From: Ostreococcus lucimarinus
Taxonomy: Eukaryota
Strand: one strand, 5' to 3'
DNA length: 64,000 nucleotides
NCBI GenBank assembly: GCA_000092065.1
Contig: CP000594.1
Below are positions 47,553 through 54,277 of the stretch, one piece after another. The notes under the pieces were generated by a model. It was not told the origin of the DNA, did not search any database, and saw only the letters and a list, made by a program, of their open reading frames with translations. How positions within the stretch are numbered: the first letter of the stretch is position 1; the number at the start of each line of letters is the position of its first letter. The translations under genes were made by a program, and so were the position numbers.

Positions 47553-49619
47553 CTATTCGTCGACGAGCGGAAGCGCGTCTCTCGAACGGATGGCTGGAAG
47601 CATAGCCGGAATCAAGTTCAGGTAATCTTCCAACAGTCCTGTCGTGGTGATGAACTGCCACGTGAAGAAGGCCATGACGAGTGATACGAAAAGCGTGGCG
47701 ACGAAAGCGCGCTCGCGGAAACCCGAACGCCGGATCATAGCGATCGTCGTTGCCATGACGGGATGAATCGTCATTCTGAAGTAGAACATCGGATAGAAAA
47801 CGACGAGCGCGACGGAGTACACGGCCAAGTGTCTCAAGTACTGACGACGCTGTGACCCAGACATTTGCTGCCACGTAAGACCTCGCCACGAGCCCGCTAA
47901 AGCTCGTCGCGGCGGTCTTGGAACGAAAGGTTCATGCTTGCACTTGACGCAGTGACACTTACCACCCACGATGCAACGAGGCAAGATGTGGGGCGAAAAC
48001 TTTTCATGCAGCTTTTCGATGCCATCGTCGTCCGCTTGGTAAATCAAAATGCGTCCCTTTGTGCTACTACTCACGACCTCGAGTAATATTTGCAACGCAC
48101 GTCTCATGAGCCACCACACATTGATGCAATGCACCTCGCACGCCAGCTCCGGGTAGTTGGCGTCGAGCGTCACGAGAGTCGTGGCGACGAGGGAAATCGG
48201 AAGCGAAGTCAAATCGATACCCGAGCAATCGACGAGCGCCACCAAACGACCTCGCATGACACCATTTGACTTCTTCAACCGCATCCACTCCTGCTCGGCG
48301 TGCGTCATCACCGCGGCAACGACTTCGTCCAAGCCTTCCATGCCCACTGCGTCCATGGCGGCTCGAAGTCTCAGCACGAGTTGATAACCGCCGCTCCAGC
48401 TTTGCTTCGGACCGTGAATGTATACCACGTTCTCAAACTGCTTCAGCTTGGCGTCGGTCAAGAACTCATACCTTCTGCGCCATTGCAACGATCGTTCCAC
48501 GGCTTGCGCCGCGGCGGACGTGTGCTTCCACTGTAACAAGAAAGCCGCGAGTTGGGTGTCGGTGAACTTGGCTCTCGCGGTCGGCGAGAGTTTATTTTTC
48601 AAAGCGTGAATCTCGTATTCGCGGGGAATTAACAGTGCGTTCCCGTATCCAGTATCTGTCGCCACCACACCAGTGTACACGGCGGCTGGCAGTCGATGTA
48701 ATCTATTCATTCCGCCCTTGACCCAACCGACGGGGCGCAGCAGCGCGTGCCTTTGCCTATGGCTTTCGGCGTACTCTCTCGATTGATTGATGCTCTCGTC
48801 GTCGCTCTCTTCATCGCTACCTATGTCTTCGTCACTGGCGTACTCTCCGTTCGTCCCCGTTCCCGATCCACGTCGACGCCTTCGTCTGTTCCTAGCCCCC
48901 GTGAATCGCGCGATGGTGCTCAGCTGTCCCTCCGCGTGCCGCATCGCGTACAGCACGTCCCTCGGCAACGTCTCCTCCAAAACCTCCCACGCCTCGTTCA
49001 CCGCCGCCCTATACGAACTCACCTCATTCTTCACCTTATTCTTCGCCAACAACTTCCCCAACCGCTTCGCGTGTCGCTGCAGCTTTATCCGCACCGCCGG
49101 AATCTTGCACACGCGCGCCGCCATTTTCGCAAACTTCCGCACGAAACATTTATACGGCGCCGACGCCGCGACGAGCAGCGCCACGCGTCCCGTGATCGTC
49201 GGCAGCGGCTTACTCGACGCCAGCCCCTTCGTCATCGTCGCCAACGCCTTGACGACGAGCGTTTCGATCCTTCGTCTTCGCGTCCCGACCGCGTTCGCCT
49301 TTAAAAATCCCAACGTTCGTCGTCCGCGGTGGTTGACGCGATACATCTCTCCCGCGCACACGCACGCCGCGACCAGCGGGCCGCGTCGTCGTCGGGCTTT
49401 GCGCAGCCAGACGACTCGCGCGGCGTAGCTCGCGAACTGCGCCGTGGGCGTCGTCGCGCGGTACAATTCGCGCGCGACCGCCGCCGTGGACGCCGTCGCG
49501 AGCGCGACGGCACCGCGACCGAGCGGGCGCGTCGTCGCGCGCGCGACGACGCGAACGGCGACCTCAGCGGTAGCACCATCGTCCGCGCGCGTCGACGACG
49601 CGCCGGACGACGGCGTCAT
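47553..49619 (-). CDS. CRAL-TRIO (Sec14-like) lipid-transfer domain protein with C-terminal TM helices
   Basis: FENVVYIHGPKQSWSGGYQLVLRL...LVALVDCSGIDLTSLPISLVATTLVTLDANYPELACEVHCINVWWLMRRALQILLEVV...ILPRCIVGGKCHC fits the Sec14 fold pattern; two hydrophobic helices near the C-terminus. N-terminal boundary uncertain. Confidence 0.6.
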   Translation of the reverse strand: MTPSSGASSTRADDGATAEVAVRVVARATTRPLGRGAVALATASTAAVARELYRATTPTAQFASYAARVVWLRKARRRRGPLVAACVCAGEMYRVNHRGRRTLGFLKANAVGTRRRRIETLVVKALATMTKGLASSKPLPTITGRVALLVAASAPYKCFVRKFAKMAARVCKIPAVRIKLQRHAKRLGKLLAKNKVKNEVSSYRAAVNEAWEVLEETLPRDVLYAMRHAEGQLSTIARFTGARNRRRRRRGSGTGTNGEYASDEDIGSDEESDDESINQSREYAESHRQRHALLRPVGWVKGGMNRLHRLPAAVYTGVVATDTGYGNALLIPREYEIHALKNKLSPTARAKFTDTQLAAFLLQWKHTSAAAQAVERSLQWRRRYEFLTDAKLKQFENVVYIHGPKQSWSGGYQLVLRLRAAMDAVGMEGLDEVVAAVMTHAEQEWMRLKKSNGVMRGRLVALVDCSGIDLTSLPISLVATTLVTLDANYPELACEVHCINVWWLMRRALQILLEVVSSSTKGRILIYQADDDGIEKLHEKFSPHILPRCIVGGKCHCVKCKHEPFVPRPPRRALAGSWRGLTWQQMSGSQRRQYLRHLAVYSVALVVFYPMFYFRMTIHPVMATTIAMIRRSGFRERAFVATLFVSLVMAFFTWQFITTTGLLEDYLNLIPAMLPAIRSRDALPLVDE

Positions 49620-49766: not shown

Positions 49767-50321
49767 CTACGAATCGCGATCGCCGCTCGAATCGCGATCG
49801 CCCGCCTCGAGCGCGCCCGTCAACATCGCGCGCCGAAGCGTCAAGTTATCCTCGCGCGTCCGGTCGATCGCCTCAGCCTTCATCCAATCGTAATCGAATC
49901 CCTCGGCATCGCACGCCAGCACTTTTCTCGTCTCGATGATTCGCACGGCGACGAGTCGGTAATCCAGCTCTTCGTGCGCCATGAGTTCCGCCAACCACGC
50001 GCTCGCGTCGGCGCGCAGCGGCTTGGCGTGCAGGTAATCGATCAGTTTCGGCGCCATCGGCGAGCGGTGTCGCGTCCCTGACATCTGGTCCAGGACGACG
50101 CGGACGGCGGACATGGTGAGGAGGTCGGCGAGCGCCTTGGCGGCCTTTCGCGGCGGCGTGAGACCGTCGAAGTCGACGGTGGCGAAGAAGTCCGCGCCGA
50201 GGGCGTCGTCGTCGTCGGCGGCGGCGCGCGCGCGAGGCGAGGCGCGCGCGCGCGCGCGAGCGCGCGCGACGCGACCGGACGTGGACGCAGCGGCGGCGCT
50301 CGCGGCGGCGCTCGCGCGCAT
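49767..50321 (-). CDS. RBCX: Rubisco assembly chaperone RbcX homologue with plastid transit peptide
   Basis: RKAAKALADLLTMSAVRVVLDQMSGT aligns with cyanobacterial RbcX KETAITLQSYLTYQAVRLISQQLSET; ELDYRLVAVRIIETRKVLA vs ELVLRILTVRENLAE; NLTLRRAML vs NHRRSLLERL. Ala/Arg-rich N-terminus. Confidence 0.55.
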   Translation of the reverse strand: MRASAAASAAAASTSGRVARARARARASPRARAAADDDDALGADFFATVDFDGLTPPRKAAKALADLLTMSAVRVVLDQMSGTRHRSPMAPKLIDYLHAKPLRADASAWLAELMAHEELDYRLVAVRIIETRKVLACDAEGFDYDWMKAEAIDRTREDNLTLRRAMLTGALEAGDRDSSGDRDS

Positions 50322-50426: not shown

Positions 50427-52721
50427 TCAACAGACGAGCGGGCTGGCCGGAGCGGCGGGACGGAGCAAAAGGAGCGTCGCGCACAGAGCGACGAGACCGA
50501 GCTCGGTGGACGTCAACAGGGACGGGATGTGGGCGGCGCCGGCGTCGACGACGGCGGAGACGACGTTCGCGAGCGAGGCGCCGGACGCGAGGAGAGCGCG
50601 GCTGTCGGCGCCGACGATGGCGTAGAAGACGACCCAGGGCGCCATACCGAATGCGGTTCCGGCGACGATGGCGCGGATGGGGACTTGAGTGAGACCCAGG
50701 AGGTAGTTGGTGACCGTGAACGGGGCGTGCGGGAGGAGACGCATCAACGAAACTTTGGAGGCTTGCACGAGGGCGTCGCCGTCGCCGCTCACGGCGCGGT
50801 TCACCTTTTTCAACTGCGCCGCGATCGATCGACGCGCGGGCGCACCGATGCCCGTTTGCTGCGCCAAGTCATCGCTGATTTGCCTATACCCTCGAGCGCG
50901 GCTCGCGCTCGCCGAGATGGCGGCGGCGCACACGGCGGCGCATAAACCGAGCGCCGCGCCGTACGCGGGACCAAAAAATAAGCCAGCCATGATGAACAAA
51001 GGCTGCGTAGGAACGAATGGAATTATCGCCGCGAGCGTGGTGATCGCGGTGAGGCACAATGGCGCGAGCACGGGACCAGCTTTACTGATCGCGGACTCGG
51101 CGACGTTGAGCCAGCTCGTCGCTCCGAACGCGGCCTTGACTTTGGTCGCCGTGGCGATCGGACCGGCTTGTCTCGCGTAAACCAGCGCGCTCACGGCGGC
51201 GGCGAAGATGGCGACTTGCAAAATGTGTTGACCACTGATCAAAAAGTCAAACACAGCCACCGCGCGTCGGCGAATACCGATGGCTTTGATCGCCTTGCGC
51301 AAGTTTCGCAACTTGAAAAATCGCTCCAACCCTTTCGAGTACTGGTTCTCTCGGAGATTTCTATTGGACGACATCCATCCCCACTTTTCGACGTCTGCGC
51401 GACTTGCCGCACCCATGCGTTGGCGTTCGCTGTCGTTCTCGAGCAACATCTTGACGTGCTCGGCGGCTTTGTCGTAGTCGTACTCGGGGTAGAGCAAGCC
51501 GACGTCGCCCGGATTGGTGAGGATATCGAGTAAGCCACCGGCGGCGACGGCAACGACGGGTACGCCCGAAGCCATGGACTCCATGACGACAAAACCGAGC
51601 GTCTCACTCGGGCTCGGCATGACGAACACGTCCAAAGACGCGTACGCTGCGGACAAATCGTCTCCCGTGATCATCCCCGTGAAAACTGTATTCGTTCCGG
51701 CAAAGTGCTCCTCGAGCCTTTTACGTTCGGGTCCGTCTCCGATGATGGCCAAATTCACGTTCGACGGTAATTTTGCGAGAATATCTTTGAGATCTCCCAA
51801 GCGCTTTTCCGCGCCGAGGCGTCCGACGCACCCGATGATCGGACCGTCGCGACCGCCGCTCAGACGCTTGCGCATCTCCTCGCTCTTAAAGCTCGGATTG
51901 AACGCCACCGTGTCCACGCCCTTGTCCCAGACTTGCAAATTTTTACACCCTTCTCCTCTCAACTCGTTCTCCAGAATGCTCGAAGTCACCAACGTCGTCG
52001 ACGCGTAGCCGTTCCAAAACCGAATCAAGTCCCACATCGGCTTGACCAACCCCGCCCACGTGTACCTCGGAATGTAGTGCGGAATGTGCGTGTGATACGA
52101 CTCCACGAGCGGTATATCCATCGCCTTACAGTACGTCATCGCCCCAAAAATCATCCCTCCCGGCACCGCGCAGTGCACCAAGTCCGGTTTATTCTCCTTA
52201 AACTCCCGCCACACCCGTCCGTCGAGCCCGAACGAGCACAGCAGCGTGTCCGTCCCGTAAAACGGCAGCACGAACCCTCTCAACCCGATCACCTTCGCCC
52301 CGTGATACTCCTTCGGCGGATCGCGATCGGGCGTGATCACCACCACGTCGTCTCCCATCTCTCGCAGGTTCTCGATCAATCGCAGGAATCGATTCTTCAT
52401 CCCGCTCACGTGCGAAAACGGGCTCGGCTCCACGAAGATGGCCACGCGTCGTTTCGGTCGCGCGTCCGTCGTCGCCGTCGCCGTCGCGGTCGTTCGCGTC
52501 GTCGCGCGTCGCCTCGCGACGACCACCGCGGCGTTCCGCGTCGCCGTCGAGCGCGCGTCCGCGCGTCCCGCGTCGCCGTCGCGTCGTTTCGGTCGGAATA
52601 TACCACCGCCCGTCGTCGTCGTCGTCGTCGCGCGCGTCGTCGTCGTCGTCGTCGCGCGCCGCGGTCGCGCCGACGCTCGAGGCGCGCGCGTCATCGCGCG
52701 CGTCGCGAACCTCGCGTCCAT
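50427..52721 (-). CDS. SQD2: Sulfoquinovosyl-diacylglycerol synthase SQD2 (GT4) with transit peptide, fused in one ORF to a C-terminal DedA/TVP38/TMEM64 (SNARE-associated) multi-TM domain
   Basis: Residues about 100-490 match Arabidopsis SQD2 nearly block for block (RVAIFVEPSPFSHVSGMKNRF, LREMGDDVVVIT, SYHTHIPHYIPRYTWAGLVKPMWDLIRF, IGDGPERKRLEEHFAG, LDVFVMPSPSETLGFVVMESMASGVPVVA, NQYS). The last about 275 aa contain DedA-family blocks (FVPTQPLFIMAGLFFGPAYGAALG... and LMRLLPHAPFTVTNYLLGLTQVPIRAIVAGTAFGMAP). First ATG 52721 (track start 52760 is GTG). Confidence 0.85.
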   Translation of the reverse strand: MDARFATRAMTRAPRASARPRRATTTTTTRATTTTTTGGGIFRPKRRDGDAGRADARSTATRNAAVVVARRRATTRTTATATATTDARPKRRVAIFVEPSPFSHVSGMKNRFLRLIENLREMGDDVVVITPDRDPPKEYHGAKVIGLRGFVLPFYGTDTLLCSFGLDGRVWREFKENKPDLVHCAVPGGMIFGAMTYCKAMDIPLVESYHTHIPHYIPRYTWAGLVKPMWDLIRFWNGYASTTLVTSSILENELRGEGCKNLQVWDKGVDTVAFNPSFKSEEMRKRLSGGRDGPIIGCVGRLGAEKRLGDLKDILAKLPSNVNLAIIGDGPERKRLEEHFAGTNTVFTGMITGDDLSAAYASLDVFVMPSPSETLGFVVMESMASGVPVVAVAAGGLLDILTNPGDVGLLYPEYDYDKAAEHVKMLLENDSERQRMGAASRADVEKWGWMSSNRNLRENQYSKGLERFFKLRNLRKAIKAIGIRRRAVAVFDFLISGQHILQVAIFAAAVSALVYARQAGPIATATKVKAAFGATSWLNVAESAISKAGPVLAPLCLTAITTLAAIIPFVPTQPLFIMAGLFFGPAYGAALGLCAAVCAAAISASASRARGYRQISDDLAQQTGIGAPARRSIAAQLKKVNRAVSGDGDALVQASKVSLMRLLPHAPFTVTNYLLGLTQVPIRAIVAGTAFGMAPWVVFYAIVGADSRALLASGASLANVVSAVVDAGAAHIPSLLTSTELGLVALCATLLLLRPAAPASPLVC

Positions 52722-52771
52722 CGTCGCGGGCGTCGGCGCGAGCCCCCGCGCGTCCCGCACTGCCGCGCGCG

Positions 52772-53341
52772 ATGGACGCCCCGACGTCGGCGCTCGCGAT
52801 CGACCGCGCGGCGGTCGACCGCATCGCGCGCGCCGCGACGCTGTCGACGCTCGCGGGCGCGCTCGCGGGCGCGGCGCTGGCGCTGCGACGACGCCGACCG
52901 CAGGCGGTGGCGCCGACGCACGCCGTCGCGGGCGCGGCGAACGTCGGCGCGTGCGGCGCGGCGCACGCGACGACGCTCGAGGCGCTGGACAGACGGCCGG
53001 ACGCGCGAGGCGCGACGACGCACGCCGTCGCGGGCGCGTGCGTCGGGACGGGCGCGGCGTGGGTGAGGTGGGGACGACGCGCGGCGACGGCGGGCGCGGC
53101 GTGCGGCGCGGCGGCGGCGGGCGGCGCGAGGGCGTGCGCGACGGCGCTCGAGGGCGCGGGAGAGCGCGGGTACGAGTTCCCGAGGTGGTTTCCGGTGCAA
53201 ATCGTGCGAGAGGAGGGGCGCGAGGACGAGCTGCTGGCGCTTATGGGGCGGGCGCAGCGAGGCGAGCTGTCGGCGGAGGACGAGGCGAGGACGCGGGACG
53301 CGTACGCGCGGTGGAAGATGCGTCGAGCGGGGAGAGGGTAG
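52772..53341 (+). CDS. Possible small Ala/Gly-rich protein with conserved-looking C-terminus (hypothetical)
   Basis: ATG start 50 nt from the divergent SQD2 ATG; C-terminal GYEFPRWFPVQIVREEGREDELLALMGRAQRGELSAEDEARTRDAYARWKM is non-repetitive, but most of the ORF is low-complexity. It could be a GC-composition artefact. Confidence 0.2.
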   Translation: MDAPTSALAIDRAAVDRIARAATLSTLAGALAGAALALRRRRPQAVAPTHAVAGAANVGACGAAHATTLEALDRRPDARGATTHAVAGACVGTGAAWVRWGRRAATAGAACGAAAAGGARACATALEGAGERGYEFPRWFPVQIVREEGREDELLALMGRAQRGELSAEDEARTRDAYARWKMRRAGRG

Positions 53342-53449: not shown

Positions 53450-54115
53450 TCAAATCATCGAAGGCGGCGTCGCGCCGAGAGACGCTAAACGTTTGAGCAT
53501 GTCTCGCCCGAAACTCCCCGGCGAGTCGTCGCGCGCCAGAGGCACCGAAATTTCAAACGGGAAGCTCACGACGTCGCTCGTCGTCACCGGCGGCACGTGC
53601 GCCTTCATCTCGTTCACCAATCCCAGCACGTGTCGCTGCGTCCCGACGACTTGGTCTCGCAGCGCCTCCCGCGCGCGCGCGCGCTCCGTCTCGTCCAACT
53701 CCTCACCCCTAAAAATCTCCAATCCGATCCTCCACTGTTCCCAGTACCCATTCGCCGCGCGCGCTTCCTCCCGTCGCGTTCGTCCGCCGCTCAGCGCCTC
53801 TCGCAGCGCGCCGCCGCGTCTCGGCTTGTCCCGCTCGCGCTCGTAAAAGCTCACCGCCACGTCCGCCTCCCCGCCTCCCGTCTTCAGCGCCCATCGCACG
53901 AGGGCGTTTATCTTCTCCTCTATCTTCCCGTCCACCGCGCCGTCGCCGCACGCGACGTAGTGCACGTCCACGCGCTCGCATCGCGCGTCCCGAGGCGCGC
54001 AGCATCCGAGCGCGCGCGCGAAGACGATCGTGTGCAGCAGCGCCGAGAGCACGTCGCGCACCTGCGACAGCTCGCATCGCAGCGGCGGCAGCGCGAACAC
54101 CTCCCGCGCCCGCAT
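53450..54115 (-). CDS. ATG101: Autophagy-related protein 101 (ATG101) homologue
   Basis: ALLHTIVFARA vs human AVLHTVLLHR; VSFYERERDKP vs LEFYQKKKSRWP; YWEQWRIGLEIF vs PWEVWTVKVHVV; VVSFPFEISVP vs PYLYKISFQIT; similar length. Confidence 0.65.
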   Translation of the reverse strand: MRAREVFALPPLRCELSQVRDVLSALLHTIVFARALGCCAPRDARCERVDVHYVACGDGAVDGKIEEKINALVRWALKTGGGEADVAVSFYERERDKPRRGGALREALSGGRTRREEARAANGYWEQWRIGLEIFRGEELDETERARAREALRDQVVGTQRHVLGLVNEMKAHVPPVTTSDVVSFPFEISVPLARDDSPGSFGRDMLKRLASLGATPPSMI

Positions 54116-54277
54116 GCGCGCGCGCGTCGACGCGCGCCGCGATGCGCGGTCGCGGCGCGGTCGCATCGCGATTCCGTCGCCACCGCGGCGTAACACTATA
54201 AAACGCGCGGACGCGACGACGCCGACGGTGTCGCGCCGCAGAAGACGACGCGCGCGACGCGACGCGACGCGAGCGGC

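What the first reader, a model, noticed from the sequence alone, without database searches (positions are those of the whole stretch)
50427..51263. SQD2 sulfolipid synthase carries a C-terminal DedA/TVP38-family membrane domain
One uninterrupted 764-aa reading frame contains a complete SQD2-type GT4 glycosyltransferase, very close to Arabidopsis SQD2. It is followed without a stop by about 275 aa with the DedA/TVP38/TMEM64 re-entrant helix signatures (G-rich FIMAGLFFGPAYGAALG and LLPHAPFTVTNYLLGLTQVPIRAIVAGTAFG). DedA superfamily members (TMEM41B, VMP1, bacterial DedA/UptA) are implicated in lipid scrambling and flipping. Coupling a glycolipid (SQDG) synthase to a putative scramblase domain is a mechanistically suggestive fusion that I am not aware of being reported.
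Basis: partly seen in the sequence, partly recalled or inferred. Interest (0 to 1): 0.7.

Follow-up and report, generated by a model that had tools for sequence, protein, structure and literature searches.

The report
Sulfolipid synthase fused to DedA membrane domain
In this Ostreococcus-type green alga, the enzyme that makes the chloroplast sulfolipid SQDG is encoded as one protein together with a DedA/TVP38-type membrane domain, a family implicated in flipping lipids, which gives a testable clue to how chloroplast lipids cross membranes.

Summary
Window 50427..52721 (minus strand) is one 764-aa ORF. It has a transit-peptide-like N-terminus, a complete GT4 SQD2-type glycosyltransferase (aa 91-460), a basic linker plus a TM helix, and a Pfam VTT/DedA domain (aa 570-705, 47.7 bits against a cut-off of 33.9).

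It is not a mis-join. In-frame GC3 is continuous, and no Met lies between aa 450 and 578. dN/dS against O. tauri is 0.19 for both linker and VTT core. O. tauri has the same fusion with the same gene order. About 159 database proteins in several diverged clades carry both halves, including intron-containing genes where the junction lies within one exon.

The closest unfused relatives of the tail are stand-alone VTT proteins of core chlorophytes (Chlorella, Tetraselmis, Chlamydomonas, Astrephomene, Neomeris), so this is a Rosetta-stone link.

Almost all fused tails have lost a conserved Glu before re-entrant loop 1. They keep the Pro, Gly and Arg of both loops.

The function is inferred, not shown: membrane anchoring plus translocation of newly made SQDG. 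No paper in the searchable library describes the fusion. The nearest precedent is the bacterial DedA-PAP2 fusion.

The parts
50427..52721 (-). Whole coding sequence of the fusion protein (764 aa plus stop at 50427-50429). The ORF extends upstream to a GTG at 52760.
52452..52721 (-). aa 1-90: N-terminal extension rich in Arg, Thr and Ala, presumed to be a plastid transit peptide. It is unstructured in the model.
   Evidence: pLDDT below 50 for aa 1-86. 29% identity and dN/dS about 1 against O. tauri. 21 K+R against 5 D+E. Plastid targeting is inferred, not tested.
51342..52451 (-). aa 91-460: GT-B fold, GT4-family SQD2/SQD3-type sulfoquinovosyltransferase domain, including the E373-x7-E381 motif.
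   Evidence: Pfam. E373 and E381 are invariant in A1. Best named homologues are plant and algal SQD2 or sulfolipid synthase. The model has pLDDT about 90, and its best structural matches are MshA, BshA, PimB' and PimA. dN/dS is 0.09.
51255..51341 (-). aa 461-489: strongly basic helical linker (10 K/R in 29 residues). The first ~10-15 residues continue the enzyme's own C-terminal helix, shared with unfused SQD2; the remaining basic stretch (about aa 470-489) has no counterpart in land-plant SQD2.
51177..51254 (-). aa 490-515: first transmembrane helix, continuous with the linker helix in the model.
   Evidence: Hydropathy. Single helix 449-519 in the AF2 model.
51081..51176 (-). aa 516-547: variable loop between TM1 and the DedA core, modelled with low confidence.
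50586..51080 (-). aa 548-712: DedA/VTT core. The order is TM helix, re-entrant loop 1, TM helix, two extramembrane helices, re-entrant loop 2, TM helix. The Pfam VTT_dom match is aa 570-705 (window 50607-51014).
   Evidence: tail model pLDDT 87.4, pTM 0.80. dN/dS is 0.19.
50970..51023 (-). aa 567-584: re-entrant loop 1, IPFVPTQPLFIMAGLFFG. P568, P571, P574, G580, F583 and G584 are invariant or nearly so among fused tails. A565, just upstream, replaces the Glu found in stand-alone relatives.
50691..50741 (-). aa 661-677: re-entrant loop 2, RLLPHAPFTVTNYLLGL. R661, P664, P667, F668 and Y673 are invariant among fused tails.
50430..50585 (-). aa 713-764: less conserved C-terminal helices, including a last hydrophobic helix at about aa 737-757.
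   Evidence: (dN/dS 0.57)

Best explanation
This is a genuine, evolutionarily conserved single gene for a two-part plastid membrane protein.

Shown:
- An SQD2/SQD3-type GT4 sulfoquinovosyl-diacylglycerol synthase domain is covalently joined, through a basic helix and one TM helix, to a TVP38-type DedA/VTT domain with two re-entrant loops.
- Both halves and the junction are under purifying selection, and the arrangement is kept in many diverged green algae.
- In core chlorophytes the closest relatives of the tail are separate genes.

Inferred:
- The catalytic domain sits on the stromal face, where UDP-sulfoquinovose is made. The tail holds it on the plastid inner envelope or on an envelope-thylakoid subdomain.
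- The DedA domain moves the anionic product SQDG (or possibly the DAG substrate) between leaflets right where it is made. This would relieve the leaflet asymmetry created by one-sided synthesis and feed thylakoid biogenesis.
- This would be the eukaryotic counterpart of bacterial DedA-PAP2 fusions, in which the enzyme and the lipid translocator catalyse consecutive steps.

My probabilities: real fusion protein about 0.95; tail acts as a lipid translocator coupled to SQDG synthesis about 0.45.
For: Real fusion:
- One ORF with continuous in-frame GC3 and no internal Met before the VTT core.
- Pfam hits for both halves above threshold.
- The O. tauri genome (GCA_002158475.1) has a 756-aa orthologue at 81% identity with the same neighbours: ATG101, a 190-aa gene, the fusion, RbcX, CRAL_TRIO.
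- A 55%-identical relative on a 2 Mb contig is also fused.
- In the intron-containing clade the GT C-terminal half and the VTT domain lie in one exon.
- dN/dS against O. tauri: GT 0.09, linker 0.19, VTT core 0.19.

The tail is a folded DedA domain:
- AF2 tail model has pLDDT 87.4 and pTM 0.80, with two short helices each preceded by a Pro-rich loop and followed by a long helix. [quoted passage not shown]
- The Pro, Gly and Arg residues of both loops are invariant across tails that are only 28-39% identical.

Rosetta stone:
- A profile search of 1.84 billion representatives gives fused proteins first. Next come stand-alone VTT proteins (E 1e-41 to 1e-30) from Neomeris, Astrephomene, Tetraselmis, Chlamydomonas sp. 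and Chlorella variabilis.
- In an NJ tree the fused tails form one group next to that stand-alone group.

Context from papers:
- DedA members TMEM41B and VMP1 are scramblases. Cyanobacterial DedA proteins were proposed to reduce the asymmetry caused by localised lipid synthesis (PMC9950537).
- Arabidopsis TVPFP, a Tvp38/DedA protein, forms chloroplast puncta and its loss alters thylakoid-envelope contacts. SQD2 is enriched in the intermediate 'lightThy' membrane fraction in the same study (PMC13381928).
Against: - No activity, localisation or transcript data exist for this protein. The function of the tail rests on family membership only.
- 154 of 156 fused tails have G/A/S (A565 here) where 70 of 81 stand-alone representatives have E/D. 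This position lies on the N-terminal flank of re-entrant loop 1, where YqjA has the essential E39 (PMC7818093; my alignment to YqjA is weak). The fused domain may therefore have lost proton coupling, or transport altogether.
- The tail evolves about twice as fast as the GT domain.
- No solved DedA structure exists to validate the model.
- A few database entries are frameshifted inside the tail. These are probably assembly errors, but that is not proven.
Confidence: 0.5

Rival explanations
1. Anchor or targeting module only. The DedA-derived tail no longer transports anything. It persists as a multi-pass anchor that fixes the otherwise peripheral synthase to a particular plastid membrane or to envelope-thylakoid contact sites.
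For: - The conserved acidic residue before re-entrant loop 1 is lost in 154 of 156 fused proteins, but retained in stand-alone relatives and in the basal fused forms P0030 and P0258.
- dN/dS is higher in the tail than in the enzyme.
- Unfused SQD2/SQD3 of other algae often end in a short hydrophobic extension, for example P0079 and P0061, so anchoring is a plausible selective need.
- Arabidopsis TVPFP was interpreted as a contact-site organiser (PMC13381928).
Against: - A simple anchor would not need about 165 conserved residues.
- Both re-entrant loops keep invariant Pro, Gly and Arg across lineages that share only about 30% identity.
- The TM1 helix already present at aa 490-515 would be enough to anchor the protein.
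Confidence: 0.3
2. The tail is an active DedA transporter, but for something other than the product. Candidates are supplying DAG to the active site, moving another anionic lipid (PG, glucuronosyl-DAG), or acting as an ion- or proton-coupled regulator of the synthase.
For: - DedA substrates are diverse: undecaprenyl phosphate for UptA, phospholipids for TMEM41B and VMP1 (10.1101/2022.02.03.479048; PMC9950537).
- SQD2-type enzymes also make glucuronosyl-DAG in plants.
- The Mamiellophyceae enzyme belongs to the functionally uncharacterised SQD3-type clade (PMC11771548).
Against: Nothing specific supports it. Precedent for fusion with the enzyme (DedA-PAP2) favours consecutive steps on the same lipid. 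DAG flips spontaneously and quickly (general membrane biophysics, my own knowledge), so it needs no translocator.
Confidence: 0.15
3. Artefact: two neighbouring genes (SQD2 and a DedA gene) joined by an assembly or sequencing error, or by chance read-through in GC-rich DNA.
For: - Long spurious ORFs are common in this GC-rich window.
- Three database clusters (P0003, P0009, P0014) differ by frameshifts inside the tail.
Against: - The same uninterrupted architecture occurs in an independent O. tauri genome assembly and in many metagenome assemblies from several clades at 41-81% identity.
- Purifying selection acts across the junction.
- There is no start codon for a separate DedA gene.
- The linker itself is conserved.
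Confidence: 0.03

Closest known systems
Plant and algal SQDG synthase SQD2 (Arabidopsis At5g01220) and its chlorophyte paralogue SQD3 (Chlamydomonas Cre16.g689150)
   Same: GT4 GT-B fold, EX7E motif, an N-terminal plastid-type extension, and 49-59% identity over the catalytic domain.
   Different: The known enzymes are about 450-530 aa and end shortly after the catalytic domain. This one continues for about 300 aa into a multi-pass DedA domain. By published phylogeny it groups with the SQD3-type clade rather than with AtSQD2 (PMC11771548).
Stand-alone chloroplast/chlorophyte TVP38-family VTT proteins (for example Chlorella variabilis E1Z6S4). Arabidopsis At1g22850 and TVPFP are the described chloroplast Tvp38/DedA proteins.
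   Same: Same Pfam domain and the same loop motifs (PLxPTQPL...GLLFG and RLxPxxPFSxSNYLLG). They are the closest non-fused relatives by profile search and NJ tree.
   Different: Those are separate genes of about 360-410 aa with their own N-terminal extension, and they keep the Glu before re-entrant loop 1. I could not test orthology to the Arabidopsis proteins because no sequence was available in the tools.
Bacterial DedA-PAP2 fusions and the UptA undecaprenyl-phosphate flippase (10.1101/2022.02.03.479048)
   Same: A DedA domain is fused to, or adjacent to, an enzyme acting on the same membrane lipid. This is read as consecutive steps: enzyme, then translocation.
   Different: The partner enzyme differs (a GT4 glycolipid synthase rather than a lipid phosphatase), as do the lipid (a glyceroglycolipid rather than a polyprenyl phosphate), the DedA subfamily (TVP38-type) and the setting (a eukaryotic plastid). 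In the bacterial fusion the translocated lipid is the enzyme's product at the outer face, whereas here the enzyme is expected on the stromal face.
ER scramblases TMEM41B and VMP1 (DedA superfamily)
   Same: VTT/DedA domain with two re-entrant loops. They have a proposed role in equilibrating lipids made on one leaflet (PMC9950537).
   Different: They are distant in sequence, are not fused to a synthase, and act in the ER rather than the plastid.

Membership tests
GT4 glycosyltransferase, SQD2/SQD3-type SQDG synthase | Both Rossmann-like halves of the GT-B fold (Pfam Glyco_transf_4 plus Glycos_transf_1) score above gathering cut-offs | tested here: met
   (82.8 and 107.7 bits). Model pLDDT about 90, with top structural matches MshA, BshA and PimB'.
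GT4 glycosyltransferase, SQD2/SQD3-type SQDG synthase | EX7E catalytic or nucleotide-sugar motif of retaining GT4 enzymes | tested here: met
   E373-TLGFVVM-E381. Both Glu are invariant in alignment A1.
GT4 glycosyltransferase, SQD2/SQD3-type SQDG synthase | Closest characterised or named homologues are SQDG synthases rather than other GT4 enzymes | tested here: met
   The best named hits are SQD2, sulfolipid synthase or sulfoquinovosyl transferase of algae and plants at E 1e-108 to 1e-138. Bacterial NCBIfam GT4 models all score far below their cut-offs. Published trees place the Mamiellophyceae enzyme in the SQD3-type clade (PMC11771548).
GT4 glycosyltransferase, SQD2/SQD3-type SQDG synthase | Transfers sulfoquinovose from UDP-SQ to diacylglycerol; located in the plastid envelope | not testable with these tools
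   Needs an enzyme assay and localisation. The N-terminal extension is compatible with a transit peptide.
DedA superfamily / VTT domain (PF09335), TVP38/TMEM64 branch | Pfam VTT_dom match above the gathering threshold covering the whole profile | tested here: met
   47.7 bits against 33.9, profile positions 1-122 of 123. JGI names fragments of the same clusters 'YdjX (TVP38/TMEM64 family)'.
DedA superfamily / VTT domain (PF09335), TVP38/TMEM64 branch | [quoted passage not shown] | tested here: met
   AF2 tail model (pLDDT 87.4). Short helices at aa 573-583 and 668-676 are each preceded by a Pro-rich loop and followed by long helices at aa 585-623 and 682-712, with helices 627-644 and 650-662 between the repeats. 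This is model-level evidence only, since no solved DedA structure exists for comparison.
DedA superfamily / VTT domain (PF09335), TVP38/TMEM64 branch | Sequence motifs GxxxM/VxxxxF/Y and F/YxxxR/K (PMC3836016) | tested here: inconclusive
   The window has G677-LTQ-V681-PIRA-I686 (the last position is I, not F/Y). Relatives such as P0154 have GLSKVSMATF. The F/YxxxR motif after loop 1 is AFxxxR in most relatives, but SASASR in the window. My assignment of motif positions is by eye.
DedA superfamily / VTT domain (PF09335), TVP38/TMEM64 branch | Membrane-embedded charged residues essential in YqjA: acidic E39/D51 at loop 1 and basic R130/R136 at loop 2 (PMC7818093) | tested here: not met
   The Arg before loop 2 is invariant (R661). 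The acidic residue before loop 1 is A565 here, and G/A/S in 154 of 156 fused proteins. It is E/D in 70 of 81 stand-alone relatives and in fused P0030 and P0258. The D51 position is Q573.
DedA superfamily / VTT domain (PF09335), TVP38/TMEM64 branch | Lipid scrambling or transport activity | not testable with these tools
   Requires reconstitution or genetics.

The most novel reading that the evidence does not exclude
The fusion is a Rosetta stone. It would reveal that the chloroplast TVP38/DedA proteins of the whole green lineage (the stand-alone chlorophyte proteins, and possibly Arabidopsis TVPFP/At1g22850) are the missing translocators for SQDG and other anionic thylakoid lipids. They would work directly with SQD2 at envelope-thylakoid contact sites. 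In Mamiellophyceae and a second algal clade, the two partners have simply been welded together.
Probability: 0.3. Interest if true: 0.8.

Novelty: new variant of a known kind. Interest (0 to 1): 0.6.

Why it matters
How glycolipids made on one face of the plastid envelope reach both leaflets and the thylakoids is still an open question, and the function of chloroplast and cyanobacterial DedA/Tvp38 proteins is described as elusive (PMC3836016, PMC9950537, PMC13381928). A conserved natural fusion of the SQDG synthase with such a domain names a specific lipid and a specific partner enzyme for this family. It also yields simple experiments: tail deletion, loop mutants, and reconstitution with SQDG. 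In addition it predicts an SQD2-TVP38 functional interaction in plants and in Chlamydomonas-type algae, where the genes are separate. The recurrent loss of the conserved Glu in fused forms offers a natural experiment on what that residue does in DedA proteins.

Tried and rejected
- Tail-only and tail-profile word-index searches returned almost only fused proteins or fragments. The exhaustive HMM search was needed to reach stand-alone relatives.
- The single genome-contig scan with an SQD2 alignment, meant to test whether cyanobacterial sqdX sits next to dedA, returned one 397-bp contig. That question remains untested.
Assigning the 50-55% identity clades to Micromonas or Bathycoccus, or naming the second clade, would be a guess from composition, so I do not claim it.
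- Transcript evidence: L008 (2294 nt, one gene, short flanks) looks transcript-sized but has no poly(A). Other short contigs carry neighbouring genes. I found no direct RNA proof.
I use it only as a positional hint.
- NJ trees are crude. Whether the fusion arose once or more than once is left open.
- NCBIfam has no model matching the tail.
- I considered and rejected a mis-join, chance read-through, and the tail being part of the downstream RbcX gene. P0004 is a chimeric gene call joining the tail end to RbcX.
Full report
**1. What is in the sequence**

The minus strand of the window carries one ORF from 52760 (GTG) or 52721 (first ATG) to the stop at 50427-50429. That is 764 aa from the ATG.

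Pfam places Glyco_transf_4 at aa 106-271, Glycos_transf_1 at aa 281-441, and VTT_dom (PF09335, the former SNARE_assoc/DedA domain) at aa 570-705. The VTT_dom hit scores 47.7 bits against a gathering cut-off of 33.9 and covers the whole profile. Bacterial NCBIfam GT4 models all score far below their cut-offs, and no NCBIfam model matches the tail.

GC3 remains high (0.60-0.94) in this frame from start to stop. The only Met residues after aa 450 are at 578, 660 and 693, all inside the VTT domain. An independent DedA gene could therefore not start upstream of its own first re-entrant loop.

**2. It is a real, conserved fusion**

A search with the whole protein returned a 100%-identical 756-aa protein. 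It also returned an 81%-identical 756-aa protein from the Ostreococcus tauri genome (BE221DRAFT_66306), and about 30 further cluster representatives of 700-915 aa at 48-82% identity. All of these have precomputed GT4 and PF09335 domains. By contrast, SQD2 proteins of Trebouxiophyceae, Chlorophyceae, Ulva, Pseudoscourfieldia, streptophyte algae and land plants are about 450-580 aa and lack PF09335.

The O. tauri locus has the same gene order as the window: ATG101, a 190-aa gene on the other strand, the fusion, RbcX, and a CRAL_TRIO protein. A 55%-identical fused relative sits on a 2.09 Mb contig, again near ATG101 and an RbcX-like gene.

Nei-Gojobori dN/dS between the window and O. tauri:

| Region | dN/dS |
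|---|---|
| N-terminal extension | about 1.0 |
| GT domain | 0.09 |
| Linker (aa 461-545) | 0.19 |
| VTT core | 0.19 |
| Last 54 aa | 0.57 |

The junction and the tail are therefore translated and constrained.

Three small database clusters (P0003, P0009, P0014) deviate by frameshifts inside the tail. Given the many intact copies, I take these for assembly indels.

**3. Breadth and history**

Besides the clade containing the window and O. tauri and its 50-55% identity relatives, there is a second clade (P0073, P0077, P0093, P0095, P0237, P0241, P0250-P0255, P0292) at 41-43% identity. Its genes have introns: the N-terminal GT half is called as a separate ORF. The C-terminal GT half and the VTT domain are in one exon.

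A basal full-length form (P0030, 706 aa) and a fragment (P0258) are also fused.

In an NJ tree of the VTT core, all fused tails group together, next to a large group of stand-alone proteins. In an NJ tree of the GT domain, clade 2 is monophyletic (100/100). All fused proteins together are monophyletic in only 6/100 replicates, because clade 2 sits among core-chlorophyte enzymes near Chlamydomonas Cre16.g689150. Whether this reflects one old fusion with later losses, two fusions, or a transfer is unresolved with these crude trees.

A published ML tree places Mamiellophyceae SQDG synthases in the clade of Chlamydomonas SQD3, not that of AtSQD2/CrSQD2 (PMC11771548). 'Very close to Arabidopsis SQD2' should therefore read 'SQD2/SQD3-type, about 50% identical'.

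**4. The tail's relatives**

A profile of 12 tails searched against 1.84 billion representatives gave 8218 hits at E<=1e-3 and 54 at E<=1e-30. The fused proteins came first. They were followed by 250-425-aa stand-alone VTT proteins in which the match starts after an N-terminal extension of roughly 20-170 residues.

Those stand-alone proteins that carry names are all green algae:
- Neomeris dumetosa
- Astrephomene gubernaculifera
- Tetraselmis sp. GSL018
- Chlamydomonas sp. CCMP681
- Chlorella variabilis E1Z6S4, named 'VTT domain-containing protein'

These names come, and Pfam sees only VTT_dom in the stand-alone proteins scanned (Neomeris, Astrephomene and four unnamed representatives). The two parts are thus separate genes in core chlorophytes and one gene here, which is a classical Rosetta-stone relation.

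**5. Anatomy of the tail**

The AF2 model of the whole protein has pLDDT 76. The GT domain is at about 90, and aa 1-86 are disordered. A single long helix (aa 449-519) runs from the end of the enzyme through a very basic stretch (aa 461-489, 10 K/R) into the first hydrophobic helix.

A tail-only model built on a 60-sequence alignment has pLDDT 87.4 and pTM 0.80. In full-length numbering its elements are:
- helix 534-566
- loop FVPTQP
- short helix 573-583
- helix 585-623
- helices 627-644 and 650-662
- loop LPHAP
- short helix 668-676
- helix 682-712
- helix 717-752

No solved structure resembles it by sequence or by fold, in line with the statement that no experimental DedA structure exists (PMC9950537).

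The two strongly basic segments (aa 461-489 and 608-661) are expected on the same side as the enzyme, by the positive-inside rule. This is an inference. I could not inspect coordinates.

**6. A derived feature**

In stand-alone relatives, the residue three positions before the first Pro of loop 1 (...AEMIPLFPTQP...) is E/D in 70 of 81 non-redundant representatives. In fused proteins it is G, A or S in 154 of 156 (A565 in the window). The two exceptions are the basal forms P0030 and P0258, which also keep the stand-alone-type loop 2 (RLTPVVPFSxSNY).

In E. coli YqjA, the essential E39 lies on the N-terminal side of re-entrant loop 1 and D51 on its C-terminal side. R130 and R136 lie at loop 2 (PMC7818093). 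By position, the lost Glu corresponds to E39 and Q573 to D51, while the loop 2 Arg (R661) is invariant. My direct alignment to YqjA is weak, so this equivalence is an inference.

The pattern suggests that fusion came first, followed by loss of the acidic residue.

**7. Mechanism**

Shown: a single constrained protein with a complete lipid glycosyltransferase and a complete, derived DedA domain.

Established background:
- SQD2 makes SQDG from UDP-sulfoquinovose and DAG at the plastid inner envelope (as cited in PMC11771548).
- DedA members TMEM41B and VMP1 scramble phospholipids (PMC9950537).
- UptA flips undecaprenyl phosphate. [quoted passage not shown]
- Cyanobacterial DedA proteins were proposed to dissipate the asymmetry caused by localised lipid synthesis (PMC9950537).

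Inference: the tail anchors the synthase and translocates its anionic product between leaflets at the site of synthesis.

The main rival is that the tail has become a pure anchor or targeting module. The lost Glu and the faster evolution fit that idea. The invariant loop residues argue against it, as does the separate TM helix that could already anchor the protein.

A 2026 study fits either reading. Arabidopsis TVPFP (Tvp38/DedA) forms chloroplast puncta, its loss lengthens thylakoid-envelope contacts, and SQD2 is enriched in the intermediate-density 'lightThy' fraction (PMC13381928).

**8. Novelty**

The architecture is visible in public databases. None of the ten literature searches found a description of an SQD2-DedA/VTT fusion. 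Nor did targeted term searches within surveys of algal glycosyltransferases (PMC3797821) and SQDG synthases (PMC7281551, PMC11771548), a paper on chloroplast Tvp38 homologues (PMC3836016) and the 2026 chloroplast membrane-fraction study (PMC13381928).

I rate it a new variant of a known kind: DedA fused to a lipid-metabolic enzyme, and SQD2 with an added domain. It is of moderate to high interest because it makes the function of plastid DedA proteins directly testable.

Noticed in passing
window 47553..49619 (-): A 688-aa protein with a CRAL/TRIO (Sec14-like lipid-binding) domain at aa 450-548 and hydrophobic C-terminal helices lies two genes downstream of the fusion. O. tauri has the same neighbour. 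A chloroplast Sec14-like protein (CPSFL1) serves as a chloroplast-localised control alongside SFR2 in the localisation screen of PMC13381928. Whether this gene is plastid-targeted or functionally linked is unknown.
   Followed up: partly
window 49767..50321 (-): The gene immediately downstream is an RbcX (Rubisco assembly chaperone) homologue (PF02341, 36.5 bits). It is separated from the fusion's stop codon by only about 105 nt. A MetaClust entry (P0004) wrongly joins the end of the DedA tail to RbcX.
   Followed up: partly
window 52772..53341 (+) and 53450..54196 (-): Upstream neighbours are a 189-aa ORF with no Pfam hit (a 190-aa gene is called at the same place in O. tauri) and an ATG101 autophagy protein (128 bits).
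   Followed up: partly
P0055 (Scenedesmus sp. PABB004 'SQD2', 1056 aa) and P0089 (720 aa): Some Sphaeropleales-type SQD2 proteins carry a thioredoxin domain (PF00085). This is another, different C-terminal fusion of this enzyme, or possibly a gene-model artefact.
   Followed up: no
P0003, P0009, P0014 (ENA metagenome proteins, 97-100% identical to the window protein): These entries leave the window's reading frame inside the tail (after about aa 549-630) and continue in another frame of the same GC-rich DNA. They are probably assembly indels, but natural frameshift alleles are not excluded.
   Followed up: partly
P0184 (WP_430962135.1, 'glycosyltransferase, partial [Pseudomonas aeruginosa]', 120 aa) in the cluster of P0018; L017 (Glycocaulis profundi VJOU01000287.1, 397 bp): Two bacterial records hold short fragments that belong to algal SQD2-type genes. 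They are most likely eukaryotic contamination in bacterial assemblies.
   Followed up: no
window 52250..53250: GC reaches 0.70-0.81 across the 5' end of the fusion gene and the intergenic region. Many long overlapping ORFs in other frames there are compositional, not genes.
   Followed up: no
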